DNA from: an uncultured Candidatus Saccharibacteria bacterium
Lineage (GTDB): Bacteria; Patescibacteriota; WWE3; 2-01-FULL-39-13
DNA length: 60,486 nt
NCBI GenBank assembly: GCA_964510925.1
Contig: CAZEDS010000002.1
Span: 32,482 to 92,967, forward strand
Direction of reading: 5' to 3'
Shown: positions 43,940-57,551 of the stretch, piece by piece
Layout: the number at the start of each line of letters is the position of its first letter
How positions within the stretch are numbered: the stretch's first letter is position 1
Translations under genes and position numbers: made by a program
Notes under the pieces: generated by a model
The model's database searches: none
The model's input: the letters and a program-made list of their open reading frames with translations, nothing else
What the model was told of the DNA's origin: nothing

Positions 43940-44014
43940 GGCCCTATCGTCTATCGGTTAGGACAGCAGGTTTTCATCCTGTAAAGCGGGGTTCGATTCC
44001 CCGTAGGGTCACCA
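43940..44014 (+). tRNA. trnE: tRNA-Glu(UUC)
   Basis: 75 nt; acceptor GGCCCTA/TAGGGTC, anticodon arm GCAGG-TTTTCAT-CCTGT, GTTCGAT T-loop, encoded CCA. Confidence 0.95.
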
Positions 44015-44131: not shown

Positions 44132-44149
44132 TTCCCCGTAGGGTCACCA
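44132..44149 (+). repeat. 18-bp direct repeat of the tRNA-Glu 3' end (att-like)
   Basis: TTCCCCGTAGGGTCACCA, identical to 43997-44014. Confidence 0.85.
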
Positions 44150-44254: not shown

Positions 44255-44515
44255 GACTCTCAAGCATACACACATTTTGTTGAAACTCTTGGAATCAAAA
44301 TCTCTATGAGTAAAAAATCAAGCCCATGGGAAAATGGCTTTCAGGAATCTTTCTATTCACATTTTAAATCAGAATTTGGTGACTTTAATAGGTTTGACGA
44401 TATTGCCTCTTTAATCGAAAATATTTACAGGCAAATTTGGTATCACAATAATCAAAGAATTCACACTGCTTTAAAAATGAGCCCACTTAGTTATAGAGAA
44501 TTCCATTCCAAATAA
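44255..44515 (+). mobile_element. IS3-family transposase remnant (integrase-core C-terminus)
   Basis: Frame open from 44255: ..LGIKISMSKKSSPWENGFQESFYSHFKSE..YHNNQRIHTALKMSP; the upstream part is missing. Confidence 0.75.
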
Positions 44516-44810
44516 TTGGGTACTTGCCATTTAGTATTGATTCTTTTTCAGTTTCCTCTATTGCTCTTAATCCACCTTCAACCATTGTTACTGATTTATT
44601 ATTATTTGCTTTTGGTAAAAACTCATCAAAGAATGATTTTAATTGATCAAATTGTGAATGGTCAGAATCAAACGTATGAATAGATCCAAAATAATAAAGA
44701 AATTGATTATCCTTTTCTATTTTAAAAGTTATAGGTTTGCCAGTTAGTCGAGAGATTAAATTGTTGTCCCATTTTGATAGTAGCGATTTAATTTCATTTA
44801 ATTTATTCAT
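44487..44810 (-). CDS. Hypothetical protein, probably truncated
   Basis: 107 aa; the C-terminus runs into the antisense of the IS remnant. Confidence 0.4.
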   Translation of the reverse strand: MNKLNEIKSLLSKWDNNLISRLTGKPITFKIEKDNQFLYYFGSIHTFDSDHSQFDQLKSFFDEFLPKANNNKSVTMVEGGLRAIEETEKESILNGKYPIIWNGILYN

Positions 44811-44889: not shown

Positions 44890-45603
44890 ATGACTAAACA
44901 AGGGCTAGAGAAAATATTCGAAAATAATAAGGATTTACAAAAAAGAATAGAAATACTTAAGCTTGCTTCAAATTTGAATCCAGGTTTTAAACAACCTCAT
45001 ATAGTTGGTGGATTTTTAAGAGACCTAGTTCTAGATAACAAGCCCTCTGACTGTGATGTAATTTTTGAAGGTAATATAAAAAATCAGCCAGGGATCTTAG
45101 AGTGTGTTATTGAGGCAGCAAAGACTTTGGGCTACGAACCGTACAATGATTGGGAATTTGAAAACTTTAAAACATGGGATTTGTCAGATAATATAATTGA
45201 GGATTCCATTGGATTCTATTCTAATCATACCGACTATTTATCCCAAATTACCTATGATACAGAAAAAAGAGTGTCTATTGGTTCTGATAGAGTTTTATAT
45301 TGCTTAGAAAATAGACTATATGATGTTAGATATGATGGAATTTTAGTCTGGGTTGGCTTCAGAGGACGAAGTTATTTTAGATCTTTGGCTGGTCTTTGCG
45401 TTAGAGGGCTTTATCTTTGTCATAAGCTTAACCTAAGCACATCGGAAGCTTCAACTAAATTATTTAAGAAATTTGATGAATTATATGAGAAATTAACTAA
45501 TAAAGAACAAGAGGATGTACTAGAACAATGGAAAAGAAAAACAATAAACCTGAGTAATTTAGAAGTAACGCTTTCAAAATACGAAATAAAAAAGTTAAAG
45601 TGA
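44890..45603 (+). CDS. Nucleotidyltransferase (CCA/poly(A)-polymerase-like head, Pol-beta fold)
   Basis: IVGGFLRDLVL...SDCDVIF (GGxxRD and DxD); no HD domain. Confidence 0.7.
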   Translation: MTKQGLEKIFENNKDLQKRIEILKLASNLNPGFKQPHIVGGFLRDLVLDNKPSDCDVIFEGNIKNQPGILECVIEAAKTLGYEPYNDWEFENFKTWDLSDNIIEDSIGFYSNHTDYLSQITYDTEKRVSIGSDRVLYCLENRLYDVRYDGILVWVGFRGRSYFRSLAGLCVRGLYLCHKLNLSTSEASTKLFKKFDELYEKLTNKEQEDVLEQWKRKTINLSNLEVTLSKYEIKKLK

Positions 45604-46542
45604 ATTTATAATTAAATCGGCCTCTACCACAAATTTCTTTAACATTTCATAGTTCCTTACCTTTTTAGATTCTGAGTACTCTATACCGTCCAATATTTTC
45701 CCCGCATAAAAGTTTATTTTGTTCAATAACATTAGAACTCTTGTCTGATTTAATAATCTATGAAAATCATAGCCCGTATATAGTTGCTCAAATGCTTCTA
45801 AATTTATATCGGTCTTTGCCATTACCTCTACATAGTTTTCTATATATTGATTTATGTCGACGAGTCCGCTTCCAAATCTCGTATTAACCCAATCTAAAAC
45901 TTTAATTTGCCCTGTAATTCGATTGACCAATAAATTCTGAGTTTCCAAATCTCCGTGTTCAAGTATATTGGGTAATTCATCATTTTCCTTTAAAAATAAT
46001 AAATATTGTTCTTCCCTATTCTTTAGATTGAGCAGCATATCGTTAAGTTCTTCGAATTTACCTCCCATTAATAATTTTTCAATTATATTCAAAGGTTTGA
46101 GAATTAAATATTTTTTTTGAATATCAACTGGTTCTTTATATAATGTAGTATCTACTTTGAATGTAATTTGATGTTTATTTATTATCCAAGTCTTTAATTT
46201 AGATAGGTCGTTTCTATCAAAATTTCTATAATTATCAGAAGATAGGTATTCCATGATGATAAGGTTATTCGAGGAATATAATATTTTAGGGGCGGATAGG
46301 GCATCATGAGTATTAAGTATTTCGGTATATGTCTTAACCTCTCTTGTATGCCAATCTTCTAAATACTCTTTAACAATGAATCTTTTATTTACAACTTCTA
46401 TCAAAAAAACATTGTCTGTAAAACCACTTGGTATGTGCTTTGATTTTATTACACCAATATCTTCTTGAAGAATATTCCTTAAAGCTTTTTTTATTTCTTC
46501 AATATCATTTAGCTCTCCCCATACAAGCTTATTCTTTTCCAT
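45595..46542 (-). CDS. Aminoglycoside-phosphotransferase/choline-kinase family kinase
   Basis: SGFTDNVF, FIVKEY, Brenner motif HGDLETQN, VLDW. Confidence 0.82.
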   Translation of the reverse strand: MEKNKLVWGELNDIEEIKKALRNILQEDIGVIKSKHIPSGFTDNVFLIEVVNKRFIVKEYLEDWHTREVKTYTEILNTHDALSAPKILYSSNNLIIMEYLSSDNYRNFDRNDLSKLKTWIINKHQITFKVDTTLYKEPVDIQKKYLILKPLNIIEKLLMGGKFEELNDMLLNLKNREEQYLLFLKENDELPNILEHGDLETQNLLVNRITGQIKVLDWVNTRFGSGLVDINQYIENYVEVMAKTDINLEAFEQLYTGYDFHRLLNQTRVLMLLNKINFYAGKILDGIEYSESKKVRNYEMLKKFVVEADLIINSL

Positions 46543-47374
46543 ATTTTTCTATTAAGTGGTCAAGAATAGTTACACCTTTATTTTCTAGCTCTATTCTCGG
46601 TGTATATTTTGTAACAATATTATTATGCCAAGTTTGATCCTTTAAAAAATCTTTCTTTCCGTGTAATTCATATACGTTATTAATTGAATCTATTATTTTT
46701 TTATAAGTTGCTTTGCTACAAAGACTATCTTTACCATAACTTCTAGTATAGTTAACTAGTACTTGAGGTATATATGAAAAAGCATTGGGGAAGAATTCAG
46801 CATGTCTTAATAAAAATTCAAAGTCTTCATAGAGGTCAAGTTCTTCATTCCAATAACCTACTTTATTTATTGTTTCACGACTATGAATCATTCCATTCGT
46901 ATCACATTGTATTTTTAAACTTATTATATTTTCATAGCTAAAGATATCTTTTTCAAATAGTAATGATTCAATAAAAGTTTTTTGAACAGTTCCATCATTA
47001 TTCAACAAATTAACCTTAAAATTTTTATTAGGCATAAAAATTTTTTTATCAGGCTCTTTTTTTATATGGGAGTCAATAGTTGATAGCCAATCAGTATAAA
47101 CAAAATCATCGCTATCCAAATAAGCTATATATTCACCTCTAGCCATTTTAATTCCCATATTTCTTGCACTTGAAACACCTGTGTCATTTTCATTTAGGAT
47201 ATATTTAACCCTTTGATCATTAAAAGCCGTAACTAACTTATCAGTACCATCCTTAGACTTTCCATCAACTATTAATAACTCCCAATCCGAGAAATCTTGG
47301 TTAATAACACTTCGAATGGATTTCCATATAATGTTCGCTCTGTTTTTTGTTGGAGTAATTATTGTGTATTTCAT
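46529..47374 (-). CDS. GT2 family glycosyltransferase
   Basis: IITPTKNR, IVDGKS.DGT, GVSSARNMG, YLDSDD, YEDFEFLLR. Confidence 0.9.
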   Translation of the reverse strand: MKYTIITPTKNRANIIWKSIRSVINQDFSDWELLIVDGKSKDGTDKLVTAFNDQRVKYILNENDTGVSSARNMGIKMARGEYIAYLDSDDFVYTDWLSTIDSHIKKEPDKKIFMPNKNFKVNLLNNDGTVQKTFIESLLFEKDIFSYENIISLKIQCDTNGMIHSRETINKVGYWNEELDLYEDFEFLLRHAEFFPNAFSYIPQVLVNYTRSYGKDSLCSKATYKKIIDSINNVYELHGKKDFLKDQTWHNNIVTKYTPRIELENKGVTILDHLIEKYGKE

Positions 47375-47868
47375 TCTATCTTAATTATATTTTTCCTAGC
47401 TAGAAAATCAAAAAATAACTCTTGGCTATCAAAAACATGTAAATTGTTTACCATTATGAATCTATAATATTGAGATGTTTTATTTGCTATATCTTCTTCT
47501 GTAACCTCCGTACTGTTATATTTGGTACGCAGTCCAGTTCTTTGTTCCTTATTACCTTTAATTCGGTGTAATAAATCTATTGATTCCTCTGGTCGCAAAT
47601 TTTCATGTCTTAAAGCTATTAATTTAGCTGCTTTCCCAGATAAATAACCCAATAATTTTTTTCTGCCAACAGGGTGAGTTATTTCTTTTGGATATAAAGT
47701 TTCAACATCTTCGTCCGTTAAAATTATTTCTAGGTTAAAAATGATTTCATATCCACTTTGAACTATATCTGCTAATAACAACTCTTCTTGGCTTAGTTCT
47801 AAAGTATCTGGTTTTATCATTATTCCTGAACTATCTTCTATAGTTGTTCGGTCAATATTTTCTATCAT
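47371..47868 (-). CDS. Nucleoside-diphosphate-kinase-like protein
   Basis: IMIKPD, GYEII, LT.EDVETLY, GLRTKY, NNLHVFDS (compare NAVHGSDS). Confidence 0.65.
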   Translation of the reverse strand: MIENIDRTTIEDSSGIMIKPDTLELSQEELLLADIVQSGYEIIFNLEIILTDEDVETLYPKEITHPVGRKKLLGYLSGKAAKLIALRHENLRPEESIDLLHRIKGNKEQRTGLRTKYNSTEVTEEDIANKTSQYYRFIMVNNLHVFDSQELFFDFLARKNIIKIE

Positions 47869-47927
47869 AAACGGGAACTTATTGTAACATAATGATCTTC
47901 TTTTACTTTTAATCTATAATCAGGTCT

Positions 47928-48371
47928 ATGAATCACTTAGCTATTTATAGCAGAAACAGAAGTAAAGATTACATCACGATGATGCTGTTAGGTACAAAAA
48001 CAGTCGATGTAAAACTTAGCTATAGGAAAATGGCACCATATAAAAAATTGGCCGAGGGTGATGTTGTTTATATAAAAGAATCTGCTGGCCCAATTGTTGG
48101 AAGATTTACGATTAACAAAGTAAAGGATGTAGAGATTATAAACCCTAATCAAATACTAGATATGCTATTTGATATTCGCGATGAAGTAGGATTAGAGACC
48201 GATGAAGCTGTCTTAAAAATGTATAACAAAGTTATGTATAAAAAATATATGACAATTTTTTGGTTTGAAAATCCTGAAAAATTAGTACCTCCAATTAAAA
48301 TAATAAAATCTGATAGACGAGTTTGGGTTCCTGACTATAATATTCCTGATGAAATTTATTACTCCTTCTGA
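47928..48371 (+). CDS. ASCH/PUA-like domain protein
   Basis: HLAIY..YITMMLLGTKTVDVK..PYKKLAEGDVVYIKESAGPIVGRFTI. Confidence 0.72.
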   Translation: MNHLAIYSRNRSKDYITMMLLGTKTVDVKLSYRKMAPYKKLAEGDVVYIKESAGPIVGRFTINKVKDVEIINPNQILDMLFDIRDEVGLETDEAVLKMYNKVMYKKYMTIFWFENPEKLVPPIKIIKSDRRVWVPDYNIPDEIYYSF

Positions 48372-48416
48372 TTTTCTTATACATAAATTGTATAAGGAAG
48401 TGTTGGCGCTTTATAC

Positions 48417-49700
48417 ATGATAGGTATAAGATTTCTTAGTATGCAAAATATCAAAAAGTTGAGAATCAACTTGCATAGTAAACAAATAGAGGCTAATTGG
48501 GATTTATATCAGAAAAGATATTTAGAAATCGAAGCACAGCTACAGAAGCCTCTTACCCTACTTTTCTCAACAAACTTAAAAAAATATATACATAGTACTG
48601 GATCCTTCCAAATTAATAGCAAAGAGTATGAATTAATTGATGACAAATTAAAAAATTTCTTTGAAACAGACCAAAGTGTTATAAGAATGAAAACAAAGAT
48701 TATTTTTAGAGGTAAAAATTATTATCCAGGATTGTATGAAGACTTGAATGATGAAAGCAAATTTAAACTAATTTTTTCAGAAATTAACGAAATCAAAAGT
48801 AGTTTAAGTAACCTAGATTTAAAGTCTAATCTAATATTATTCTTAGTTTTGGCTGATTATCTTAAAAATTATTATTTGATTATTTTAAATGCCTTTGATG
48901 AATCGTTAAGAACTGTTTGCCCAAATGATATTGATGACAAAATTTATTTTAATTTAATAGAAACAATACAAAGAATTGAATATTGTACATTTAAATCAAT
49001 TAATGATGAAGTAATACATTGGGATAAAGATATATTAAACTACAATATTCGTAAGATTGAGAAGCATCTATTGGAAATATCTAAATTAAAAATAGTATTT
49101 AACAAACCTTTAATTAGAAATATAAGGGAGTGTAATCATATAATAAAAATCCTAGATTTCGCAAATAGGATCTCGGACGAATACTTACCTAGAAATACTC
49201 TCTTAGTAAGCTTTGCCTATGGTGGAATAGAACTTCCATTTTCTATTAATGCTTTGAGAGCTATTCGGGGAAAAAGCACCTTGCCAATCTGTATTTGTCG
49301 CCTATCTAATTATTCTTCTGGAACGATAGATAAAATACAGGATTTATCTGATACGCTGTCTCATTTCTATTCAGAGAAATACATTGAACAATTTGAAAAT
49401 ATAATGATTTTAGATGATTCAATAACAACGGGAAAAACTATTCAAAACTTTGTAGACTTACTTCCTAATAAACTAAAAAAGCTTTATTTGGGGATTGTCT
49501 CATTTAAAAATAGTAACAGATATCACCATTTAGTAATGCCTTACCATGGGGGTGTTAATCCCGAAGTCTTAAAAAATGCGGTTATAACTTCAACTAGTAA
49601 TTTTGCTAAGACGTACAAGAAATTTAGTTATACAAATAAAAATGGTGTTTTTGATAAAGAAAAAACAAAAATATACAAATTATTAAATATTTATAAATAA
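48417..49700 (+). CDS. Type I phosphoribosyltransferase-domain protein with unknown N-terminal domain
   Basis: LVSFAYGGIELP loop and PRPP-binding ILDDSITTGKTI. Confidence 0.75.
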   Translation: MIGIRFLSMQNIKKLRINLHSKQIEANWDLYQKRYLEIEAQLQKPLTLLFSTNLKKYIHSTGSFQINSKEYELIDDKLKNFFETDQSVIRMKTKIIFRGKNYYPGLYEDLNDESKFKLIFSEINEIKSSLSNLDLKSNLILFLVLADYLKNYYLIILNAFDESLRTVCPNDIDDKIYFNLIETIQRIEYCTFKSINDEVIHWDKDILNYNIRKIEKHLLEISKLKIVFNKPLIRNIRECNHIIKILDFANRISDEYLPRNTLLVSFAYGGIELPFSINALRAIRGKSTLPICICRLSNYSSGTIDKIQDLSDTLSHFYSEKYIEQFENIMILDDSITTGKTIQNFVDLLPNKLKKLYLGIVSFKNSNRYHHLVMPYHGGVNPEVLKNAVITSTSNFAKTYKKFSYTNKNGVFDKEKTKIYKLLNIYK

Positions 49701-49702
49701 AA

Positions 49703-50377
49703 ATGACAATTATATTCGACTTTGATGGGACTATAATCAAGTCCTCACAATTACATAAAAAGGGATGGGATCTAGCCCTTAAGCAATTAAATATTGATGA
49801 TTCATTGGATATTTTGCTTCCGTATGAGCCTAATTTAAAAGAACGTTTCGATAGCTATAGAAGAATTAAATCTGGATTTATTGAAAATAAAAAAATATTC
49901 AACAAGGTAAGTGGATACTTCCAAAGTAACGATAAGTCTTTTTTGGTTAAATCTATTATGGATTTAAAAGAAAACATGACAATTTCAAACGTAATGAATA
50001 TGGATACATATGATTTGATATCTCTTTGTGCGGTAAATTTAACCCCTGCTCTAATGGAGTTGAAAGATAATAAAAATACTCTTGGAATAATTAGTTCTAC
50101 AAGGAAAACTATTATAACGTCTATTCTAACAAAGCTTAATTTAGTAGACCTTTTCGACGAAATAGTTGGAGAAGAGAGCATGTATAAACAGGATATATTA
50201 ATGGATAAGCCGGATCGATATTCAGGAGATATATTTAGTAGCAAAACCAATAAAAAGATAGATGTATATGTAGGCGACAATGATTTAATAGATAGAGAAT
50301 TTTCAAACAACTATCGCTGTAAATTTATACTAATGGATTACAAGTTTGATATGTTTAATTTAAAAAATTTAATATGA
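49703..50377 (+). CDS. HAD-superfamily phosphatase
   Basis: IIFDFDGT (motif I), IISST, DKP, YVGDN.ID. Confidence 0.85.
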   Translation: MTIIFDFDGTIIKSSQLHKKGWDLALKQLNIDDSLDILLPYEPNLKERFDSYRRIKSGFIENKKIFNKVSGYFQSNDKSFLVKSIMDLKENMTISNVMNMDTYDLISLCAVNLTPALMELKDNKNTLGIISSTRKTIITSILTKLNLVDLFDEIVGEESMYKQDILMDKPDRYSGDIFSSKTNKKIDVYVGDNDLIDREFSNNYRCKFILMDYKFDMFNLKNLI

Positions 50378-51693
50378 AAAAACTTAAAATATGTAATATA
50401 AAAAATCTATATGAGACTCGCAGTGCTGCAACTCTAGGCGTTGATTATCTCGGTTATCATTTAATTTCTGAAAGTGATTTCAACAGATCGAAAGAAATAA
50501 AAAATTGTATCTCTGAATTAAGAGATTTCTACCCTAAAACAAAAAGTGTTCTAGTAACAAAAGAGAAAAACATAGAAATATTAGAAAAGACAATTGATTT
50601 ATTTGAATTCGATGCAGTTCAGCTTCATTATGAGGAATCGAAGGAAGTAATAGCTCATTTACGAGGTAAGTATGGAGATGTAATAGAGATATTTCAAGTA
50701 TTAACAGTAGATTCAAGCGCAGTTGATATATCTGCAGAAGCGGACTATCACATACTTGATAAGTCATTCTTAGGAGGAACGGGAAAAGAGATAGGTTTAG
50801 AAACAATTGAAAATTATATTAAAAAGCTAGGGAACGTAAAGTTATTTTTGGCTGGTGGGTTATCTCCTGAGAATGTTCATAAATATATAAATCTTGAAGT
50901 ATTGGGTTTTGATATACAATCTGGTATGAAGGCAGATATTACTAGCGAGTATGAAAATACTTCTTTCATAAAAATAAAAAAAATAACTACTTTGTTGGGA
51001 AAAGAGCTTCAAGTTAAATCAAATCAAATTGGCTTTGCTATTCAAGATATAAATCAAAAAAATTCAGACCTATTAAAAGAAGCCATCGCAGCAGGAATTG
51101 ATTTCTTTCATTTAGATATTAGTGATGGCTTTATTGGTGATATTACTGATTTAACAAAAACAGTAAGCTTGATTTCTGGATTAAATGAATTATCATCTCA
51201 TTTCCCTATTCATTACCATTTCTTTACTAAATCATTTGAAAAATTCATTGAACTTAATAACGAGTTATGGATTGATAAGTTAGATAACGCACATTTTTTT
51301 GTTCATATAAATCGGGATAATTATAAATATTTTACATCATTAGAACGAGATCATAAGAATATATTTTTCGCCTTAGATGTTAAAGATTTGATTGATGAAT
51401 CTTTTCCTTGGGAAAATTTTGTTAAAGAATCATTATTGATTTGTTTTCAATCTGAATCTCATGCTGAAAGGATAGATAACTATAATAAAGCTAGAAAAAT
51501 GATAAATTATTCAACAAAGAAAAATCCGATGATTATAATAGATAGAAGCATTAGTATAGATGTAGTAGAGCAAATTGATCAAATTCGTAACTTAAGTATA
51601 GTGAGTGGAAGTTACTTAAAACAAGATATTAATAAGAATTATAATATCTTAAAAAATTATTTAAATGAAAGGATTAAATATGAAAAACAATAA
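50374..51693 (+). CDS. TrpF-like isomerase fused to a ribulose-phosphate-3-epimerase-like domain
   Basis: N-half KICNI, AVQLH, ILDK..GGTG, LAGGLSPENV, DIQSG; C-half HLDISDG, HYH, IIDR, VSGS. Confidence 0.72.
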   Translation: MKKLKICNIKNLYETRSAATLGVDYLGYHLISESDFNRSKEIKNCISELRDFYPKTKSVLVTKEKNIEILEKTIDLFEFDAVQLHYEESKEVIAHLRGKYGDVIEIFQVLTVDSSAVDISAEADYHILDKSFLGGTGKEIGLETIENYIKKLGNVKLFLAGGLSPENVHKYINLEVLGFDIQSGMKADITSEYENTSFIKIKKITTLLGKELQVKSNQIGFAIQDINQKNSDLLKEAIAAGIDFFHLDISDGFIGDITDLTKTVSLISGLNELSSHFPIHYHFFTKSFEKFIELNNELWIDKLDNAHFFVHINRDNYKYFTSLERDHKNIFFALDVKDLIDESFPWENFVKESLLICFQSESHAERIDNYNKARKMINYSTKKNPMIIIDRSISIDVVEQIDQIRNLSIVSGSYLKQDINKNYNILKNYLNERIKYEKQ

Positions 51694-52630
51694 AATTAGA
51701 ACTGCTGTTATAGATGTAGGGACTTTGAAATCCAAATTCGAGATTCGTGAATTCGATGAAAATCTTAATTCAAAAGTTTTATATAAAGATAAACAATTAA
51801 CTGTTTTAGGCCGGGACCTAGATAAAACAGATAATATGATTATAGAAAAATCGGTAGTTAAAACTATTGAAGCATTAAAAGATTTTAAGAATAAATTAGA
51901 GGAGCATAAAGTTGATAAGTATATAGCTGTTACAACAGAAGCTATTAGAAAGGCGAAAAATGCAAACGAAGTTATAGATAGGATATATAATGAAACAGGT
52001 ATAAATTTAACAACTTTGTCTCATGAGGATGAAGCTAAGCTATATTTCTATTCAGTCTCTAAAGATTTTAAAGATAAAACAATCGCCGTCTCTGACATCG
52101 GTGGTGGAAGCGTCCAAGTAGTTGTGGGTAAAAATAATGATATACATGAAATTCATTTGTTTAAAACTGGCACTTATTATCTACAAGAAGGCTTTTCTAA
52201 AACGCATCATCCAACATTAGAAGAGGTTGAAAATGCATTTAAGTATGTAAAAAAAGAATTGGAATCATTACTTGAAACAAAGCATACTCCTGAATATTTG
52301 ATTTATGGAACGACAAATATAGTAGATTTTTTTAAGAGCATGAACTTAGAACTAAGCCCCTTGGACGGTGAAAATAATGATCACAGTTATTATCTGGAGG
52401 TGAAAAAGCTAATCCCTCTATACGAGAAATTAATAGGTCTAAGCTATGAAGATAGAATGCCTTTATATCCAGAAGAACCATATTATATGTGGGCCGCTGA
52501 TAAAGCATTAATGAATATATTTGCTATTTCTGAGCATTTAAAGGTTAAAAATGTAGTGCCAAGCAATAACAATATCTCTACAGGTTTATTAATTGATTTG
52601 GCAAGACAACTAAGAGATGCAAAAGAATAA
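51680..52630 (+). CDS. Ppx/GppA family phosphatase (ASKHA fold, no HD domain)
   Basis: AVIDVGT, TTEAIRKAKNA, LSHEDEA, DIGGGSVQ; AAAGGA SD before ATG 51680. Confidence 0.85.
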   Translation: MKNNKIRTAVIDVGTLKSKFEIREFDENLNSKVLYKDKQLTVLGRDLDKTDNMIIEKSVVKTIEALKDFKNKLEEHKVDKYIAVTTEAIRKAKNANEVIDRIYNETGINLTTLSHEDEAKLYFYSVSKDFKDKTIAVSDIGGGSVQVVVGKNNDIHEIHLFKTGTYYLQEGFSKTHHPTLEEVENAFKYVKKELESLLETKHTPEYLIYGTTNIVDFFKSMNLELSPLDGENNDHSYYLEVKKLIPLYEKLIGLSYEDRMPLYPEEPYYMWAADKALMNIFAISEHLKVKNVVPSNNNISTGLLIDLARQLRDAKE

Positions 52631-53411
52631 TATAAAGAAAATTTTAATAACTGGAATTAGTAGCGGTATAGGCAAAGAGATTGTAAGAACTCTATCTAAA
52701 GATCCGAACTTATACATTATTGGTTGTAGTCGTAAAAACATAGACATAGATTTTAAAAATTTTGAATATCATTATTTGGATTTAGAAAATCAAGAAAGCT
52801 GTAGAAATCTCGCAAATAAACTAAAGAATATCGATGCGATAGATGTTTATATTAACAATGCATCCTTAGGTTATAAAGGGACGGTAGAAGATTTGGATTT
52901 AAATTTTATAAGGCAACAATTTGAAGTTAATCTTTTCGGACCACTTGCCATATTAAAATCAATAATTTCAAGTTTAGAAAAAAACAAAGGAATGATTATA
53001 AATATAGATGCATTAGGTAGTGTTATAGACACCCCTACTTTTGGGTATTATGCTTCATCGAAATTAGCTTTTAATAAACTGTTAAATATTTTAGCGATGG
53101 AAACAAATATAAGCTTTCATAATATATATCTTGGAGCTGTTAAATCAAATTTTGGTAGAAATATACAATCAAATATTGATATAGAAAATAGTAGATATAA
53201 AAATTTATATGAAGAATGGCAAGAAAGATTCATTAATTTCTTTAAGGCGAGAAATAAAGCAGAGGATGTTGCAACTTTAGTAGAAAAACTAATAAACGGT
53301 GAATCAAATAAATCATTTATATCTATCAGGGATCATATCTTATTCTTAAGTAAGATATATTTGCCTCAAAGTCTATATAAGTTAGTATTATTTCATTTCT
53401 ATAAATTATGA
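52617..53411 (+). CDS. Short-chain dehydrogenase/reductase
   Basis: ITGISSGIG, INNAS, FEVNLFG, YASSK (YxxxK). Confidence 0.9.
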   Translation: MQKNNIKKILITGISSGIGKEIVRTLSKDPNLYIIGCSRKNIDIDFKNFEYHYLDLENQESCRNLANKLKNIDAIDVYINNASLGYKGTVEDLDLNFIRQQFEVNLFGPLAILKSIISSLEKNKGMIINIDALGSVIDTPTFGYYASSKLAFNKLLNILAMETNISFHNIYLGAVKSNFGRNIQSNIDIENSRYKNLYEEWQERFINFFKARNKAEDVATLVEKLINGESNKSFISIRDHILFLSKIYLPQSLYKLVLFHFYKL

Positions 53412-53989
53412 AACCTAAAAGATTTGGGCTATTTGCCTCCATTAAGTATATCGATAAGAACATAGATACATATAAAAAGATTGCGGATGTTATTAGAAAA
53501 GAAGGGATTGATATGTATAAGCCAGAGTTCGTAGACGATTACCCTAATTCAAAGAAAAAAACAGCAACCAAGAATGATTCAATTGTTGAAGGAACTCAAA
53601 AACAAATAAGATATATAGATTTTGCGGTTGCTTTCTTTTCTGATAAATCTAGGACAGTGTTTTTTCAAACGATATTAGCACTTGAAAATAAAATCCCTGT
53701 TCTATGTGTTATACACGAAAATTCTTATGAAAACTTTCCTGAAACGTTGTTATCCTATGGAGAAGATTTTATTACCGTAAGAAAATACAAGAACCTTAAT
53801 GACTTAGAGGAAATATTAACTGATTATATTAATGAGATCGAACCTCCCAAAAGGCGCTTTAATGTAGTATTGAAAACAACAACTCTAAAACAAATGGAGC
53901 AACTCTCTTCAAAAATGGATTATAGTAAAGCCGAGCTCATAAGATTCTTAGTAGAAAAGGAGTATAAGCGAATTTTTGGATCTAGATAA
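53408..53989 (+). CDS. Nucleoside-2'-deoxyribosyltransferase-like domain + C-terminal ribbon-helix-helix
   Basis: IDFAVAFFS..LALENKIPVLCV; C-terminal RRFNVVL..LKQMEQLS..SKAELIR.LV. Confidence 0.6.
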   Translation: MKPKRFGLFASIKYIDKNIDTYKKIADVIRKEGIDMYKPEFVDDYPNSKKKTATKNDSIVEGTQKQIRYIDFAVAFFSDKSRTVFFQTILALENKIPVLCVIHENSYENFPETLLSYGEDFITVRKYKNLNDLEEILTDYINEIEPPKRRFNVVLKTTTLKQMEQLSSKMDYSKAELIRFLVEKEYKRIFGSR

Positions 53990-54485: not shown

Positions 54486-57400
54486 CTAATTAAATTTCCC
54501 ATTCGAAATATCAAAGAATCGTTCAAAAAATCCAGTCAGTTTATCGATTACTGTTTCTCTCTTTTTTGTGCGATCACCGGTTGGCGAGAAAAGTGACATT
54601 GGAGGCAGTACTTTGGTAATAGCCGTACCGGTTGTCGTTACAGATCCATCCCTAAATGCATTTTTTATGAAATTATATGTTGCTGTTGTATCTAGCGATT
54701 CATTCTTTATAATTGCATCTAACTCTTCGATCTTTTCTTTTTCGATAAAAGTTCGCCAATCATTTTCAATTTCTGAATGAACATCTAAAGTTGATATAAA
54801 TTTGTTAATAAGGTCTTTTTTGTTTCTAAGTTCAACGCTTGAATCTACGGCTTTGTTAATATCTACTAATATTTCTCGGTTTTTTGTGTGGTCTTCGTGA
54901 TATTTTTTAATGAGGCTTAAAATATAATCGATATTAATTTCTATCTGTTTTATTAGTTCCATTTCAAAAATCAGATCATCGTTTATATTTTCCTTTTCTT
55001 CATTTTTTCCTTTTCTAAATTCTTTATAAAGATCAATATAAATGCTGTGATAATCTTGTATATCACGATCTGTTAAGATTTCGTTACCAGTAAATTCATC
55101 AAAGCTTGTTAGTATATTTCTTAATCTCAAAATTGAGTTATACAATTTAATAAAATCTTTTTGATTTTGTTCACCAACAATTCTTTCACCAATTGGAAAT
55201 TTTTGTAAAAGCTCACCTACCAAGCTTGCATAGCCTCGAATATCTTTTTCATCTTCTTTATAACCATTGTAATAATCTGAATAAGATTTAAGCAAAACAA
55301 TACCGCAAGCTTCTTTGTCTCCAAAGAGTGAGATTGAATCGTTTGTTGCTTTTTCTAAATTTCGGAAGCAGACAATATTTCCAAAAGTTTTTACACTATT
55401 TAATATACGATTGGTTCGGGAAAATGCTTGTAATAGACCGTGCATTTGTAAGTTTTTATCTACCCATAAAGTATTAAGCGTCGTCGCATCAAAGCCGGTT
55501 AAAAACATATTAACAACAATCAAAATATCGAGTTCTCGATTTTTAACTCGTTCGCTTACATCTTTATAGTAATTTTGGAATTTATCAGCTGATGTATCAA
55601 ATGAAGTTCCAAACATTTTATTATAATCTTCGATGGCTTTTTCAAGAAAATCTCTTGAACTTGCATCTAAACCGCTCGTATCTTCGGAGTTTTCGTCCGT
55701 CATTCCATCTGAATCTTCATCATTTACTCCAAAACTATAAATAGTTGCGATTTTAAGTTGTTTGTCGCTTGGCACTTGGGCTAATTGATTTTTAAATTCT
55801 GAATAATATTTTTTTGCCATTTCAATTGATGAAACAGCAAATATAGAATTAAAACCTGCAAGTCTACGATCTTTAAGTTGATAGAAAATATTTCGTTTAG
55901 TTTTTTGATCAAAATGTTTTAAGATATAACCTACAATATTTGATAATCTAGCAGGTGAAGATAAAACTGCTTCCCTATCAATATCTTTTATTTGGGCGTC
56001 TTCGATATTTTCCGCTTCACGCACTGTTGATACATAATCAACCTTAAATGGTAAAACATTTTTATCTGCAATTGCATCAACAATTGTATAGGTATGCAAC
56101 TTAGCTCCAAAAGCTTGTTCAGTTGTTTTTAATTGAGACTTACTATTAGATGAAGCATTATTTGCAAATATTGGAGTACCTGTAAAGCCAAAAATATGAT
56201 AATTCTTGAAAGCTTTGGTAATAGCTGTATGCATATTACCAAATTGAGAACGATGGCACTCATCAAAAATTAATACTACATGGCCATTAAAAACAGTATG
56301 TCCAAGATTTTTTGATATAAATCGATCAAGTTTTTGAATTGTTGTGATGATAATTTTCGCGTTTGAGTCTTCAAGCTGTTTCTTTAAGATTGATGTACTT
56401 TTATTACTATTTGCAGCTCCTTTTTCAAACTTATCGTACTCTCTCATTGTTTGGTAATCTAAGTCTTTTCTATCAACTACAAAGATTACCTTATCGATCA
56501 TTTTTAATTTGCTAGCCAATTGAGAGGTTTTAAAACTGGTTAAAGTTTTACCAGAGCCGGTTGTGTGCCAAATATATCCACCGGCATCTACAGTACCAAG
56601 CTTTTTATAATTGGTGCTGATTTCTATTCGATTTAATATTTTTTCGGTTGCAACTATTTGATAAGGCCTCATGACTAAAAGTTGGCGATCAGCAGTAAAT
56701 ACACAGTATTTAGTTAATATATTAAGTAGCGTATGTTTTGCAAAAAAAGTTTTAGCAAAATCTATTAAATCAGTTATTGGCCTATTAGTTTCATCTGCCC
56801 ACCAACTTGTAAATTCAAAACTGTTGCTTGATTGTTTACCTTTTTTTACTTTGGAAGAACCTGATTCTTTAATATGTTGAAAGCGCGTTGTATTACTATA
56901 ATATTTGGTATGAGTACCATTTGAGATAATAAACAATTGAATGTATTCATATAAACCAGATAAAGCCCAAAAGCTTTCGCGCTGATATCTATTAATTTGA
57001 TTAAAAGCCTCTTGGATTGAAACCCCTCGCCTTTTAAGTTCAATATGAACAAGTGGTAAACCATTTACCAAAACAGTTACATCGTAACGATTCGCACGCT
57101 GACCATCTTCGGTTGCATATTGATTAATAACCTGCAAAGTATTGTCGTGAATATTGTTTTTATTTAGAAAATAGATATTTCGTATGAGTCCATTATCAAG
57201 TGTTAAGTTTTTAACATGATCCTCTTGAATAGTTGCTGTTTTGTCTTTAATACTCTGATTTGGATTTGCGATTTCGCCGGTAAAGAATCTATCCCATTCA
57301 CTATCTGTAAAAGTAAAATTATTCAGCTTTTCTAGCTGCTTGCGTAAATTTAAAATTAAATCGGCTTCTGATTTTATCTTAAAAAATTCATAACCTTGGT

Positions 57401-57551
57401 TTTTTAACTGCTCAATAAATTCCTGCTCTAACTCTGATTCGCTCTGATAACCTTTATCACGAACAGATAAAGTATCAGGAAAATACTGTGCGACGACCGT
57501 ACTCTTATTGTTTTGTGCAACAGTTTCATAACCAATAGATTTATTTGCCAT
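54486..57551 (-). CDS. hsdR: Type I restriction endonuclease subunit R (EcoR124I-like)
   Basis: RYDVTVLVNGLPLVHIELK nuclease, HTTGSGKT, DECH, FTGTP, MFLTGFD, QAFSRTNR. Confidence 0.96.
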   Translation of the reverse strand: MANKSIGYETVAQNNKSTVVAQYFPDTLSVRDKGYQSESELEQEFIEQLKNQGYEFFKIKSEADLILNLRKQLEKLNNFTFTDSEWDRFFTGEIANPNQSIKDKTATIQEDHVKNLTLDNGLIRNIYFLNKNNIHDNTLQVINQYATEDGQRANRYDVTVLVNGLPLVHIELKRRGVSIQEAFNQINRYQRESFWALSGLYEYIQLFIISNGTHTKYYSNTTRFQHIKESGSSKVKKGKQSSNSFEFTSWWADETNRPITDLIDFAKTFFAKHTLLNILTKYCVFTADRQLLVMRPYQIVATEKILNRIEISTNYKKLGTVDAGGYIWHTTGSGKTLTSFKTSQLASKLKMIDKVIFVVDRKDLDYQTMREYDKFEKGAANSNKSTSILKKQLEDSNAKIIITTIQKLDRFISKNLGHTVFNGHVVLIFDECHRSQFGNMHTAITKAFKNYHIFGFTGTPIFANNASSNSKSQLKTTEQAFGAKLHTYTIVDAIADKNVLPFKVDYVSTVREAENIEDAQIKDIDREAVLSSPARLSNIVGYILKHFDQKTKRNIFYQLKDRRLAGFNSIFAVSSIEMAKKYYSEFKNQLAQVPSDKQLKIATIYSFGVNDEDSDGMTDENSEDTSGLDASSRDFLEKAIEDYNKMFGTSFDTSADKFQNYYKDVSERVKNRELDILIVVNMFLTGFDATTLNTLWVDKNLQMHGLLQAFSRTNRILNSVKTFGNIVCFRNLEKATNDSISLFGDKEACGIVLLKSYSDYYNGYKEDEKDIRGYASLVGELLQKFPIGERIVGEQNQKDFIKLYNSILRLRNILTSFDEFTGNEILTDRDIQDYHSIYIDLYKEFRKGKNEEKENINDDLIFEMELIKQIEINIDYILSLIKKYHEDHTKNREILVDINKAVDSSVELRNKKDLINKFISTLDVHSEIENDWRTFIEKEKIEELDAIIKNESLDTTATYNFIKNAFRDGSVTTTGTAITKVLPPMSLFSPTGDRTKKRETVIDKLTGFFERFFDISNGKFN

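What the first reader, a model, noticed from the sequence alone, without database searches (positions are those of the whole stretch)
44890..53989. Eleven-gene nucleotide/sugar-phosphate enzyme cluster in a defence island: candidate undescribed nucleoside-modification or small-molecule system
Two divergent, tightly overlapped operons (NDK-like, GT2, APH kinase | ASCH, PRTase, HAD, TrpF-Rpe, Ppx/GppA, SDR, NDT-RHH) plus a convergent nucleotidyltransferase. Every enzyme acts on nucleotides, PRPP or sugar phosphates, yet the set matches no pathway I know, and CPR generally lack such biosynthesis. Partial precedents: PRTase+HAD pairs in toyocamycin synthesis (ToyH/ToyI), the NDT-family base-releasing hydrolase BlsM plus a glycosyltransferase in blasticidin S, and PRTase/HAD/TIM-barrel clusters proposed to make a nucleoside-like metabolite in Ter systems. 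Its position between a tRNA att site and an R-M locus suggests chemical anti-phage defence, a host-directed toxin, or glycosylated-base modification (inference).
Basis: partly seen in the sequence, partly recalled or inferred. Interest (0 to 1): 0.9.

Follow-up and report, generated by a model that had tools for sequence, protein, structure and literature searches.

The report
Mobile ribose-chemistry operon in CPR bacteria
A tightly packed, self-regulated set of about ten sugar-phosphate and nucleotide enzymes recurs in the same order in many tiny parasitic (CPR) bacteria that otherwise lack such chemistry; it matched nothing in the family libraries and papers I searched, often sits beside anti-phage genes, and probably turns a phosphoribosyl-amine into an unusual sugar-alcohol compound.

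Summary
I found the same cluster in at least 15 non-identical loci from Saccharibacteria and other Patescibacteria.

- **Conserved core:** PRTase, HAD, TrpF-Rpe fusion, Ppx/GppA, SDR and a 193-aa protein, always in that order, at 30-71% identity.
- **Usual extras:** a GT2 plus APH-like kinase pair in most loci, an ASCH-type gene in many, and variable nucleotide or sugar kinases.
- **Not part of it:** the convergent nucleotidyltransferase (44890-45603) has no counterpart in any other locus.

New findings:
1. The 193-aa protein has a DNPH1/MilB-like fold joined to a CopG-type RHH domain. The nucleophile Glu appears replaced by an invariant Gln, so I read it as a ligand-sensing repressor, not a hydrolase.
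2. A palindrome, TTATAC-N7-GTATAA, sits on the operon promoter in 17 fetched loci. It also precedes GT2 or an adenylate-kinase-like gene in some.
3. All seven cluster-bearing genomes tested lack PRPP synthetase; the six tested lack TrpC and TrpD.
4. Seven of about 16 loci abut defence or candidate-defence genes (type I R-M, OLD-like, Gabija-like, SoFic, Avs4).

Best reading: a mobile metabolic operon converting an N-phosphoribosyl amine to an N-pentityl product. Product and role are unproven; a defence role remains possible.

The parts
44890..45603 (+). Nucleotidyltransferase-like ORF (237 aa). It is probably NOT part of the conserved cluster.
   Evidence: It gives a weak PolyA_pol head match (20.9 bits, cut-off 23) and a weak hit to tRNA nucleotidyltransferase-related PDB entries. 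No homologue appears in any of the related loci.
45595..46542 (-). APH/EcKL-type small-molecule kinase (315 aa), family F6.
   Evidence: Pfam EcKL and APH are above cut-off. K58, E68, the H196-G-D198-x4-N203 motif and D217 are invariant. The nearest PDB relatives are APH(2'') and choline kinase. It is present and paired with GT2 in 10 of 12 loci, and in more loci.
46529..47374 (-). GT2 glycosyltransferase (281 aa), family F7, with no obvious membrane segment.
   Evidence: Pfam Glycos_transf_2 scores 105 bits. The nearest PDB relatives are chondroitin synthase, TarP (full length, E 1e-11), SpsA and TarS. It is 35-54% identical to the GT2 of other loci. In L003/L010 it has its own copy of the operator.
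47371..47868 (-). NDK-like protein (165 aa), family F14.
   Evidence: Pfam NDK is sub-threshold at 17.8 bits. A homologue sits in L016 directly after the regulator gene and scores 24.9 bits against NDK. It is absent from the other loci, which carry other phosphate-to-phosphate kinases instead.
47928..48371 (+). The fold is unconfirmed.
   Evidence: It is 50-53% identical to counterparts in L001, L003, L007 and L017. It has no Pfam hit, and hhalign against the true ASCH neighbours (family F12) gives probability 1%. Family F12 occupies the equivalent position in L008, L009, L015, L016, L027 and L029 and passes the Pfam ASCH cut-off.
48377..48395 (.). Operator O1: palindrome TTATACATAAATTGTATAA.
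   Evidence: An exact TTATAC-N7-GTATAA lies at the homologous place upstream of the PRTase gene in 17 fetched loci. In several loci it lies between TTGAC(T/A) and TGTATAAT. At up to one mismatch the whole window holds 2 matches against a chance mean of 0.32 (4 of 100 shuffles reach 2), so the case rests on recurrence at the homologous site.
48411..48429 (.). Operator O2: second palindrome TTATACATGATAGGTATAA, 34 bp after O1.
   Evidence: It was found. It overlaps the mechanical ATG at 48417 and lies upstream of the likely true start at 48441.
48417..49700 (+). Two-domain phosphoribosyltransferase, family F0. A novel helical N-domain of about 240 aa precedes a type I PRTase domain. The likely true start is M9 at 48441.
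   Evidence: The PRPP loop is invariant, and M9 aligns with the start of the homologues. The database copy is 419 aa. The AF2 model has pLDDT 88.6. Foldseek matches only the C-domain, to APRT, HGPRT and PyrR, with no PDB match for the N-domain. Only 25 homologues were found among 5.8 billion proteins.
49703..50377 (+). HAD phosphatase of the beta-PGM/HAD_2 subfamily (224 aa), family F4.
   Evidence: Pfam HAD_2 scores 53 bits, and the N-terminus carries the FDFDGT motif. NCBIfam hits the beta-phosphoglucomutase-family hydrolase model. It is present in every locus.
50374..51693 (+). TrpF (PRA isomerase)-Rpe-like double-barrel fusion (439 aa), family F1.
   Evidence: PRAI scores 74 bits and Ribul_P_3_epim 25 bits. 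Alignment to T. maritima TrpF puts C7, R38, H85 and D129 on C7, R36, H83 and D126. H246-x-D248, H282 and D390 are invariant in the second barrel. About 30 fusion homologues were found, all about 430 aa.
51665..52630 (+). Short Ppx/GppA-family protein (321 aa) with a variant phosphate-2 motif DIGGGSVQ, family F2.
   Evidence: Pfam scores 120 bits. The closest structure is Aquifex Ppx/GppA, PDB 1T6C. In all 11 aligned members the Glu of DxGGGSTE is replaced by an invariant Gln. It is the best-conserved protein of the cluster (51-71% identity) and the only Ppx in this genome.
52617..53411 (+). Classical SDR oxidoreductase (264 aa), family F5.
   Evidence: adh_short scores 91 bits. The sequence carries TGxxxGIG, an Arg/Lys after strand 2, and YxxxK. 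The best named NCBIfam neighbours are keto-reductases such as KdsR, all below cut-off.
53408..53989 (+). Predicted operon regulator (193 aa), family F3: an NDT/DNPH1-like ligand-binding domain without the catalytic Glu, followed by a C-terminal ribbon-helix-helix.
   Evidence: Foldseek top hits are DNPH1, BcmB and MilB, with TM (target-normalised) about 0.8. The C-terminus matches CopG at E 0.04. K80-S81-R82 and Q87 are invariant. I placed Q87 at the nucleophile position by motif alignment from memory, which is inference. The family has 72 members, all found inside this cluster type where I looked. In L018 the same kind of domain appears fused to the PRTase; I read this from the sequence by eye.

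Best explanation
This is a horizontally mobile, self-regulated metabolic operon found so far only in Patescibacteria (CPR).

**Shown**
- Six genes form a fixed, translationally coupled core: PRTase, HAD, TrpF-Rpe, Ppx/GppA, SDR and the NDT-like-RHH protein.
- A GT2 plus APH-like kinase pair, and in some loci an adenylate-kinase-like gene, carry the same upstream palindrome.

**Inferred mechanism**
1. The two-domain PRTase joins a phosphoribosyl group to an amine acceptor. The acceptor is probably an aryl or heteroaryl amine with an anionic group, because the TrpF Arg36 equivalent is kept.
2. The TrpF barrel performs the Amadori rearrangement to a 1-amino-1-deoxy-ribulose 5-phosphate.
3. The fused Rpe-like metal barrel epimerises C3.
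4. The SDR reduces the 2-keto group, giving an N-pentityl 5-phosphate.
5. The HAD enzyme removes the phosphate.
6. GT2 and the kinase then decorate or activate the pentityl product.
7. The 193-aa protein sits on TTATAC-N7-GTATAA over the promoter. It responds to a phosphorylated ribosyl ligand through its catalytically dead NDT-like domain.

**Open points**
- The Ppx variant and the changeable kinases (NDK-like, PfkB, guanylate-kinase-like, adenylate-kinase-like) either supply the phosphoribosyl donor in hosts without PRPP synthetase or process a nucleotide substrate.
- The final product and its use are unknown. Candidates are an antimetabolite, chemical defence, or host interaction.
For: - **Fixed order:** gene order and identity are conserved over at least 15 non-identical loci at 30-71% identity.
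- **Catalytic residues intact:** PRPP loop; TrpF C7, R38, H85 and D129 against T. maritima TrpF; Rpe-type HxD, H and D ligands; HAD DxD motif and SDR YxxxK; kinase HGDxxxxN plus D217.
- **Sequential chemistry:** the TrpF-Rpe fusion implies consecutive steps on one ketose-phosphate scaffold.
- **Not tryptophan synthesis:** all six tested cluster-bearing genomes lack TrpC and TrpD.
- **Regulator:** DNPH1/MilB-like fold plus RHH, with an invariant Gln where I place the nucleophile.
- **Operator:** the palindrome lies at the homologous promoter position in 17 fetched loci. Extra copies precede GT2 (L003/L010) and the adenylate-kinase-like gene (L005, L011, L024).
- **Pentitol acceptor is plausible:** the GT2 aligns over its full length with TarP, which glycosylates ribitol phosphate.
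- **Accessory and mobile:** low GC, a tRNA and integrase remnant alongside, and only 1 of 61 relatives carries it.
Against: - No product, substrate or activity has been observed; the acceptor is unknown.
- All seven cluster-bearing genomes tested lack canonical PRPP synthetase. The same is reported for a closed Saccharibacteria genome (PMC6031116). The donor for a PRTase is therefore unexplained, although the window's genome also keeps an orphan PurF-like PRTase.
- The Ppx/GppA protein is the most conserved member yet has no necessary role in the proposed route.
- The HAD gene follows the PRTase gene directly, which does not match the proposed order of steps.
- Type B loci (L005, L011, L024) lack GT2 and the kinase, so decoration is optional.
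- The Rpe-like domain matches Pfam over only about 65 residues.
- Placing Gln87 at the nucleophile position rests on my recollection of the DNPH1 motif, not on a computed structural alignment.
Confidence: 0.4

Rival explanations
1. Salvage, sanitation or catabolism of scavenged nucleotides, possibly non-canonical ones. The dead NDT-like sensor detects a nucleoside monophosphate and induces the operon. Ppx removes terminal phosphates, the PRTase works on the N-ribosyl bond, and the barrels, SDR and HAD dispose of or recycle the ribose phosphate. The ASCH or EVE proteins and the nucleoside and nucleotide kinases handle modified nucleosides.
For: - The hosts live on imported nucleotides and lack Prs, Rpe and Ppx (PMC6031116).
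- The sensor's structural relatives bind NMPs, including hmdUMP.
- The accessory genes resemble a ribokinase, nucleoside kinase or ribose-1-phosphate kinase, a guanylate kinase, an adenylate kinase and NDK.
- True ASCH or EVE domains recur in the cluster.
- The HAD belongs to the subfamily that includes sugar-bisphosphate phosphatases (the subfamily content is my own knowledge).
Against: - The window's genome has no transketolase or phosphoketolase to receive a pentulose phosphate.
- SDR, GT2 and the APH-like kinase have no role in this scheme, yet GT2 shares the operator.
- Only 1 of 61 relatives with the same lifestyle carries the cluster.
- PRTases strongly favour nucleotide formation (my own knowledge).
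Confidence: 0.2
2. Anti-phage chemical defence. The operon makes a nucleoside-like or aminopentitol antimetabolite that blocks phage replication, or it depletes nucleotides. It may be switched on when the NDT-like sensor meets a phage-type nucleotide.
For: - Seven of about 16 distinct loci abut defence or candidate-defence genes. These are type I R-M plus an OLD/AriA-like ATPase (window), hsdR remnants (L001), a GajA-like protein (L007/L017), SoFic (L015), a full-length Avs4 (L016), HerA plus a methyltransferase (L018), and PDC-S05 plus PDC-S22 (L008/L027).
- The cluster is patchy, low in GC and lies in a mobile context.
- Nucleotide kinases accompany the cluster. My recollection is that they also accompany prokaryotic viperins.
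Against: - No cluster protein hits PADLOC.
- Nine loci have ordinary or unknown neighbours.
- Variable islands in tiny genomes collect all kinds of cargo, so adjacency is weak evidence.
- No infection sensor or effector is recognisable.
- No phage-borne relatives or counter-genes were found.
Confidence: 0.17
3. Cell-surface glycan or teichoic-acid-type decoration. The core makes a pentitol phosphate or unusual pentose. A kinase and a nucleotidyltransferase activate it, and GT2 transfers it or a sugar to a wall polymer.
For: - A GT2 plus kinase pair is present in most loci.
- RfaE-domain-II-like adenylyltransferase and PfkB genes in L001, L007, L012 and L017 recall HldE of ADP-heptose synthesis.
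- SDR reduction of a pentulose 5-phosphate resembles CDP-ribitol synthesis (my own knowledge).
- The GT2 is related to TarP and TarS.
- Surface-variation genes also live in variable islands.
Against: - No flippase, polymerase, priming transferase or membrane protein is in the conserved set.
- Type B loci lack GT2 altogether.
- The PRTase, the TrpF chemistry, Ppx and a nucleotide-type sensor are unnecessary for known pentitol-phosphate routes.
- The nucleotidyltransferase differs between loci or is absent.
Confidence: 0.13

Closest known systems
Early tryptophan and histidine steps (TrpD-TrpF; HisG-HisE-HisI-HisA) and the coformycin/pentostatin branch (HisA-type Amadori product, then an SDR CofB/PenB and dephosphorylation). 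The coformycin details are from my own recollection; I did not read the one paper that one search returned.
   Same: - A phosphoribosyl group is put on a nitrogen and then undergoes a TrpF/HisA-type Amadori rearrangement.
- In the coformycin branch an SDR reduction and a phosphatase follow.
- A triphosphate or pyrophosphate hydrolase (HisE) parallels a possible Ppx role.
- The TrpF catalytic residues are conserved.
   Different: - The PRTase is type I with a novel N-domain, not TrpD or HisG.
- There is no TrpC, TrpD, HisI-like or SAICAR-synthetase-like gene (cluster content).
- The TrpF barrel is fused to an Rpe-like barrel.
- The hosts lack Prs.
Ter-associated PRTase/HAD/TIM-barrel clusters proposed to make a nucleoside-like metabolite (Anantharaman, Iyer and Aravind 2012; from memory, known to me only through citing papers).
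   Same: A PRTase, a HAD phosphatase and a barrel enzyme travel together as an accessory cluster of unknown product.
   Different: - The match to PRTase_2 is only E 0.007-0.02, below cut-off.
- The barrel here is TrpF-Rpe, not a citrate-lyase or aldolase type.
- There are no TerD, ATP-grasp or TelA genes.
- This cluster has a different regulator.
NDT-superfamily nucleotide N-glycosidases: DNPH1/Rcl, MilB, BcmB and BlsM.
   Same: The fold of residues 1-145 of the 193-aa protein matches them, with TM (target-normalised) about 0.8. A Ser-containing loop precedes the active-site helix.
   Different: - The nucleophile Glu position is an invariant Gln (a Leu in the L018 fusion, by my reading).
- The domain is fused to a DNA-binding RHH.
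- A conserved operator is present.
- It therefore works as a sensor-regulator, not as a base-releasing enzyme.
ADP-heptose (HldE/GmhB/HldD) and CDP-ribitol (TarI/TarJ, Bcs1) activation pathways.
   Same: PfkB-type kinase, HAD phosphatase, RfaE-II-like adenylyltransferase, SDR and a glycosyltransferase occur together in some loci.
   Different: - Those accessory genes are missing from the window and from many loci.
- All scores are far below equivalog cut-offs.
- Those pathways have no PRTase, TrpF or Ppx.
Archaeal and CPR pentose-bisphosphate nucleotide salvage (AMP phosphorylase, ribose-1,5-bisphosphate isomerase, RuBisCO).
   Same: It has a nucleotide-derived ribose phosphate as input, an aldose-to-ketose isomerisation, and PfkB-type ribose-1-phosphate kinases.
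   Different: - PF00591 (the AMP phosphorylase family) is absent from six cluster-bearing genomes.
- The isomerase is of a different family.
- No RuBisCO gene is in the cluster or its flanks (I did not search the genomes for one).
- SDR and GT2 remain unexplained.

Membership tests
Type I phosphoribosyltransferase | PRPP-binding loop (two acidic residues, hydrophobic residues, then T-T/S-G-x-T) in a Rossmann-like core. | tested here: met
   ILDDSxTTG(K/R)T is invariant in 20 sequences. Foldseek matches the C-domain to APRT, HGPRT and PyrR. Relatives hit PF00156.
Type I phosphoribosyltransferase | PRPP-dependent transfer to a nitrogen acceptor, with PRPP available in the cell. | not testable with these tools
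   Activity cannot be computed. Prs (PF13793) is absent from all 7 cluster-bearing genomes tested and from 38 of 41 relatives.
TrpF (phosphoribosylanthranilate isomerase) | Catalytic Cys and Asp, plus the phosphate-binding GGxGK and LAGG loops. | tested here: met
   C7, D129, GGTGK and LAGG are invariant and align with T. maritima TrpF C7 and D126. PF00697 scores 74 bits.
TrpF (phosphoribosylanthranilate isomerase) | Works within tryptophan biosynthesis, with TrpD upstream and TrpC downstream. | tested here: not met
   No hit reaches the cut-off for PF00218 (IGPS) or PF00591 (TrpD) in the own genome or in five other cluster-bearing genomes.
Ribulose-phosphate 3-epimerase | Metal ligands HxD, H and D on a ribulose-phosphate-binding barrel. 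| tested here: inconclusive
   PF00834 scores 25 bits over residues 229-296 only. H246-x-D248, H282 and D390 are invariant. I assigned them to the Rpe ligands by motif comparison, not by a structural alignment.
Ppx/GppA exopolyphosphatase / pppGpp phosphohydrolase | ASKHA phosphate-1 motif, a DxGGGSTE phosphate-2 motif, and a catalytic Glu equivalent to Aquifex E119. | tested here: inconclusive
   PF02541 scores 120 bits, and E123 aligns with the EGR Glu of 1T6C. The motif is DIGGGSVQ in all 11 members, with Glu replaced by Gln. NCBIfam exo_poly_only scores 139 bits against a cut-off of 307.
NDT-superfamily N-glycosidase (DNPH1/MilB/BlsM) | The NDT fold. | tested here: met
   Foldseek gives E 9e-6 and TM (target-normalised) 0.82 to DNPH1, and also matches BcmB and MilB.
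NDT-superfamily N-glycosidase (DNPH1/MilB/BlsM) | A catalytic nucleophile Glu at the start of the helix after strand 4. | tested here: not met
   The position is an invariant Gln87 in 9 sequences. I placed it by aligning S81-x5-Q87...P97-V-L-C with the recalled DNPH1 motif S-x5-E...P-I-L-C. This is inference, not a computed structural alignment.
Ribbon-helix-helix (CopG/MetJ/Arc) repressor | An N-terminal beta-strand followed by two helices, binding repeated operator half-sites. | tested here: inconclusive
   The CopG match has E 0.04 over residues 148-180. The model shows two helices at 157-170 and 174-190. A conserved palindrome sits on the promoter in 17 loci. Binding has not been tested.
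Known anti-phage defence systems (PADLOC 2.0) | Cluster proteins match a defence-system model. | tested here: not met
   The ten proteins scanned gave no hit below E 0.005; the 193-aa regulator was not scanned. Only the neighbours hit defence models.
ASCH domain (for the 147-aa ORF at 47928-48371) | Sequence or profile match to PF04266. | tested here: inconclusive
   There is no Pfam hit, and hhalign probability is 1% against ASCH-positive neighbours from other loci. Those neighbours pass PF04266 and occupy the same slot.

The most novel reading that the evidence does not exclude
This would be a new kind of inducible chemical defence or antimetabolite system, carried on CPR defence islands. 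A catalytically dead nucleotide N-glycosidase fold, wired to an RHH repressor, senses a non-canonical nucleoside monophosphate, for example a phage-type hydroxymethylated one. It then de-represses an operon that builds its own phosphoribosyl donor without PRPP synthetase, using the Glu-to-Gln Ppx variant and the swappable phosphate-to-phosphate kinases. The operon converts an N-phosphoribosyl compound, through a TrpF-Rpe fusion, into an N-pentityl nucleoside-like product.
Probability: 0.12. Interest if true: 0.9.

Novelty: new variant of a known kind. Interest (0 to 1): 0.68.

Why it matters
CPR/Patescibacteria are thought to have almost no biosynthetic capacity and to live on their hosts' building blocks. 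Here a complete, co-regulated pathway of 8-10 enzymes moves between lineages. It contains four unusual parts:
- a PRTase with a new N-terminal domain;
- a TrpF-Rpe fusion outside tryptophan synthesis;
- a Ppx/GppA variant lacking a conserved Glu;
- a nucleotide-hydrolase fold apparently recruited as the sensor of a repressor with a readable operator.

It also raises a concrete puzzle: a PRPP-type enzyme in genomes without PRPP synthetase. If the product is an antimetabolite or a defence compound, this would be among the first specialised-metabolite pathways assigned to Saccharibacteria. It would also be a new chemical route from phosphoribosyl-amine to pentityl-amine. The operator and regulator pair is immediately testable and could serve as a ligand-screening tool to identify the pathway's metabolite.

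Tried and rejected
- **Tryptophan or histidine biosynthesis:** rejected. TrpC and TrpD are absent from six cluster-bearing genomes, and no his-type genes are in the cluster.
- **Replacement of the missing pentose-phosphate enzymes:** unlikely. The own genome also lacks transketolase and phosphoketolase, and 11 same-family relatives do without the cluster.
- **Housekeeping Ppx merely linked by chance:** rejected. It is present in every locus, is the most conserved member, and has a family-specific Glu-to-Gln change.
- **NDT-like protein as a BlsM/MilB-type hydrolase:** rejected on the Gln at the nucleophile position, the RHH fusion and the operator.
- **NTase (44890-45603) as a cluster member:** rejected, because it has no counterpart elsewhere.
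- **Phage origin:** no relatives of the fusion or of the Ppx in IMG/VR.
- **att-flanked island:** the tRNA-Glu 3' end recurs only once, 135 bp downstream, and not beyond the cluster.
- **F11 as PhnN (PRPP-forming kinase):** weaker than guanylate kinase (28-41 against 93-98 bits), so left open.
- **Profile searches that found nothing useful:** the PRTase N-domain, the 147-aa protein and the 193-aa protein against PDB sequences.
- **Literature:** the two searches aimed at a prior description found none.

Full report
**1. Observation**

The region 44890-53989 holds eleven ORFs exactly as described. A left arm lies on the minus strand: NDK-like 47371-47868, GT2 46529-47374 and an APH-type kinase 45595-46542. 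A right arm lies on the plus strand: a 147-aa ORF 47928-48371, PRTase 48417-49700, HAD 49703-50377, TrpF-Rpe 50374-51693, Ppx/GppA 51665-52630, SDR 52617-53411 and a 193-aa ORF 53408-53989. A convergent NTase-like ORF at 44890-45603 overlaps the kinase gene by 9 nt.

Pfam supports GT2, APH/EcKL, HAD_2, PRAI plus Ribul_P_3_epim, Ppx-GppA and adh_short above their cut-offs. The NDK-like, NTase and PRTase calls are sub-threshold by Pfam. The 147-aa and 193-aa ORFs have no Pfam hit. The ten proteins scanned against PADLOC give nothing below E 0.005, and every NCBIfam hit is far below its equivalog cut-off.

The window is part of a 0.89-Mb, 97%-complete genome. Related loci come from records titled Candidatus Saccharibacteria or Patescibacteria. 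Cluster GC is 0.286 against 0.331 genome-wide. To the left lie tRNA-Glu, a 16-nt exact repeat of its 3' end 135 bp further on, and a 69-aa integrase-core remnant. To the right lie a SHOCT protein and a type I R-M locus with an embedded OLD/AriA-like ATPase.

**2. The cluster recurs**

The PRTase has only 25 homologues among 5.8 billion proteins. The TrpF-Rpe fusion has about 30, and the 193-aa protein has 72.

Every contig long enough to show it carries PRTase, HAD, TrpF-Rpe, Ppx, SDR and the 193-aa gene in that order. In three 'type B' loci the last two genes are inverted. These loci are L001, L003/L010, L005, L007, L008, L009, L011, L012, L015, L016, L017, L020-L024 and L027-L029. Identity to the window ranges from 30-49% (PRTase) to 51-71% (Ppx).

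The GT2 and APH-like kinase pair is present in all loci except type B (L005, L011, L024). The 147-aa family (F8) occurs in five loci. In others a true ASCH-domain protein (F12, which passes the Pfam cut-off) takes the same slot.

Accessory genes vary between loci:
- PfkB (ribokinase- or nucleoside-kinase-like) together with a guanylate-kinase-like gene;
- an RfaE-domain-II-like adenylyltransferase;
- an archaeal-type adenylate-kinase-like gene in type B loci;
- an NDK-like gene in the window and L016.

The NTase of the window has no counterpart anywhere. A reduced variant, L018, has a 571-aa PRTase, the double barrel, a HAD-like gene and an EVE-domain gene. The C-terminus of that PRTase looks, by eye, like the NDT-like domain.

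Only the window's own genome among 61 relatives has the fusion. Seven of 185,579 species genomes matched the PRTase: five with the full-length gene, one cut off by a contig end, and one weak partial match. Some carrier contigs are labelled WWE3 or Gribaldobacteria. Nothing related was found in viral contigs. The cluster is therefore a real, rare, laterally moving unit found so far only in CPR.

**3. Anatomy of the proteins**

*PRTase.* The PRPP loop ILDDSxTTG(K/R)T is invariant, as are many residues of an N-terminal region of about 240 aa. The AF2 model is confident (pLDDT 88.6). Foldseek matches only the C-domain, to APRT, HGPRT and PyrR, and finds no solved relative for the helical N-domain. 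Met9 aligns with the start of all homologues, and the database copy is 419 aa, so the true start is probably 48441.

*TrpF-Rpe.* Alignment to T. maritima TrpF places C7, R38, H85 and D129 on C7, R36, H83 and D126. GGTGK and LAGG are kept. The second barrel keeps HxD, H and D in an Rpe-like pattern.

*Ppx/GppA.* The closest structure is Aquifex 1T6C. All 11 aligned members read DIGGGSVQ where the family has DxGGGSTE.

*SDR, HAD and kinase.* Their catalytic motifs are intact. The kinase is nearest to APH(2'') and choline kinase. The GT2 is nearest to chondroitin synthase, TarP, SpsA and TarS.

*193-aa protein.* The AF2 model (pLDDT 79.6) matches DNPH1/Rcl, BcmB and MilB at TM about 0.8. The C-terminal 45 residues match CopG (E 0.04). 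I aligned S81-x5-Q87...P97-V-L-C with the DNPH1 active-site motif as I recall it. This puts an invariant Gln where the nucleophile Glu should be, and it is inference.

**4. A conserved operator**

The 130 bp upstream of the PRTase gene contain TTATAC-N7-GTATAA at the homologous place in 17 fetched loci. In several loci it lies between TTGAC(T/A) and TGTATAAT, that is, on the promoter.

The window has two copies, at 48377-48395 and 48411-48429. It found 2 matches in the whole window against a shuffle mean of 0.32, and 4 of 100 shuffles also reached 2. The in-window count alone is therefore only mildly unusual. The weight of the evidence is the recurrence at the same position across loci whose proteins are only 30-50% identical.

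Extra copies precede GT2 in L003/L010. They also lie between the SDR gene and the adenylate-kinase-like gene in L005, L011 and L024. Where GT2 is divergent from the PRTase gene, the single copy lies in the shared intergenic region.

With an RHH protein encoded at the end of every operon, the simplest reading is an autoregulated regulon. It would comprise the core, the GT2 and kinase pair, and the adenylate-kinase-like gene, all controlled by a repressor whose NDT-like domain binds a phosphorylated ribosyl ligand. The invariant K80-S81-R82 would fit phosphate binding.

**5. Host background**

PRPP synthetase (PF13793) is absent from the own genome, from 38 of 41 class relatives and from six other cluster-bearing genomes. 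Starr et al. report the same for a closed Saccharibacteria genome (PMC6031116).

The own family also lacks canonical Rpe and Ppx. The own genome lacks transketolase and phosphoketolase. TrpC and TrpD/PF00591 are absent from six carriers. No paralogue of any core gene exists elsewhere in the genome. An orphan PurF-like amidophosphoribosyltransferase is present on another contig. This hints that PRPP is obtainable by some unknown route.

**6. Neighbourhoods**

PADLOC finds defence or candidate-defence genes beside the cluster in 7 of about 16 distinct loci:
- the window: type I R-M plus an Old/AriA-like ATPase;
- L001: hsdR remnants;
- L007/L017: a GajA-like protein beside a PLD-SNF2 helicase;
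- L015: SoFic;
- L016: a full-length Avs4 at 2177 bits;
- L018: HerA plus a methyltransferase;
- L008/L027: PDC-S05 and PDC-S22 beside an IS1595 transposase.

The other nine loci have ordinary or unknown neighbours.

**7. Interpretation**

The best-supported mechanism is the following, and it is inferred apart from the conserved residues:
1. The PRTase makes an N-(5-phosphoribosyl) amine.
2. The TrpF barrel converts it to the 1-amino-1-deoxy-ribulose 5-phosphate.
3. The fused Rpe-like barrel epimerises C3.
4. The SDR reduces the ketone to an N-pentityl 5-phosphate.
5. HAD dephosphorylates it.
6. GT2 and the kinase decorate or activate the product.

The fusion of the two barrels, the retention of the TrpF Arg36 equivalent and the absence of TrpC and TrpD favour this route. 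The missing PRPP source and the unexplained, highly conserved Ppx variant are the main weaknesses. One way out is that the Ppx variant and the interchangeable phosphate-to-phosphate kinases supply the donor. Another is that the substrate is a nucleotide triphosphate, as in the HisG/HisE logic.

The rivals are nucleotide salvage or sanitation, anti-phage chemical defence, and wall-glycan decoration. Each explains part of the gene set and fails on other parts, as set out in the Rival explanations section.

I put 0.4 on the biosynthetic Amadori-pentitol reading. Conservation of the cluster is directly shown. The regulator-operator assignment is a strong inference that still needs a binding test.

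**8. Novelty and verdict**

The enzyme families are all known, and the chemistry resembles the early Trp/His steps and the coformycin branch. The combination, three of the protein architectures and the regulator are, as far as my searches reach, undescribed. I rate it a new variant of a known kind, with interest 0.68.

Its interpretation is partly supported. The cluster is conserved, unnamed and often lies in defence islands. However, the NDT-like protein is a regulator rather than a hydrolase, and a defence function remains an inference.

Noticed in passing
window 43999-44014 and 44134-44149; 44306-44515: The last 16 nt of tRNA-Glu(UUC) recur exactly 135 bp downstream, and nowhere else in the window. 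A 69-aa integrase-core (rve_3) remnant follows. This looks like the scar of an integration and excision at the tRNA. The metabolic cluster itself is not flanked by a second repeat.
   Followed up: partly
window 54486-60188: This is a type I R-M locus (hsdR, and hsdS with two target-recognition domains). An embedded 495-aa ABC-type ATPase scores 170 bits against the PADLOC Old model and also matches AriA and GajA models. The gene overlaps hsdS.
   Followed up: partly
G000 contig C12, L030:6710-8095 (minus strand): This is an orphan PurF-like amidophosphoribosyltransferase (GATase plus PRTase domains) with no other pur genes nearby. The genome has no PRPP synthetase, so a PRPP-using enzyme has no evident PRPP source.
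   Followed up: partly
L016:1073-5770 (minus strand): A full-length Avs4 antiviral STAND NTPase (PADLOC 2177 bits over all 1565 residues), with an HTH gene, lies about 1.2 kb from the cluster's ASCH gene on a CPR-type contig.
   Followed up: no
L018:5318-9366: This minimal variant has a 571-aa PRTase whose C-terminal extension looks (by eye) like the NDT-like domain without an RHH. It also has the double barrel, a HAD-like gene whose second motif-I Asp appears replaced, and an EVE-domain gene. It lies beside HerA, NurA and a DNA methyltransferase, and the palindromic operator is absent.
   Followed up: partly
L001:2734-3792 and 17536-17916: Fragments of a type I restriction R subunit lie on both sides of the cluster in this 105-kb contig. 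The longer fragment is 76% identical to the window's hsdR. The cluster may therefore repeatedly land in or next to R-M loci.
   Followed up: no
window 44487-44810 (minus strand): This 107-aa ORF has no family hit, but it has a 54%-identical paralogue on contig C11 of the same genome.
   Followed up: no
L005:17347-18852 and L011:10018-11559: In two of the three type B loci (L005 and L011) an MFS transporter of about 500 aa follows the adenylate-kinase-like gene. This hints at export of a small molecule.
   Followed up: no
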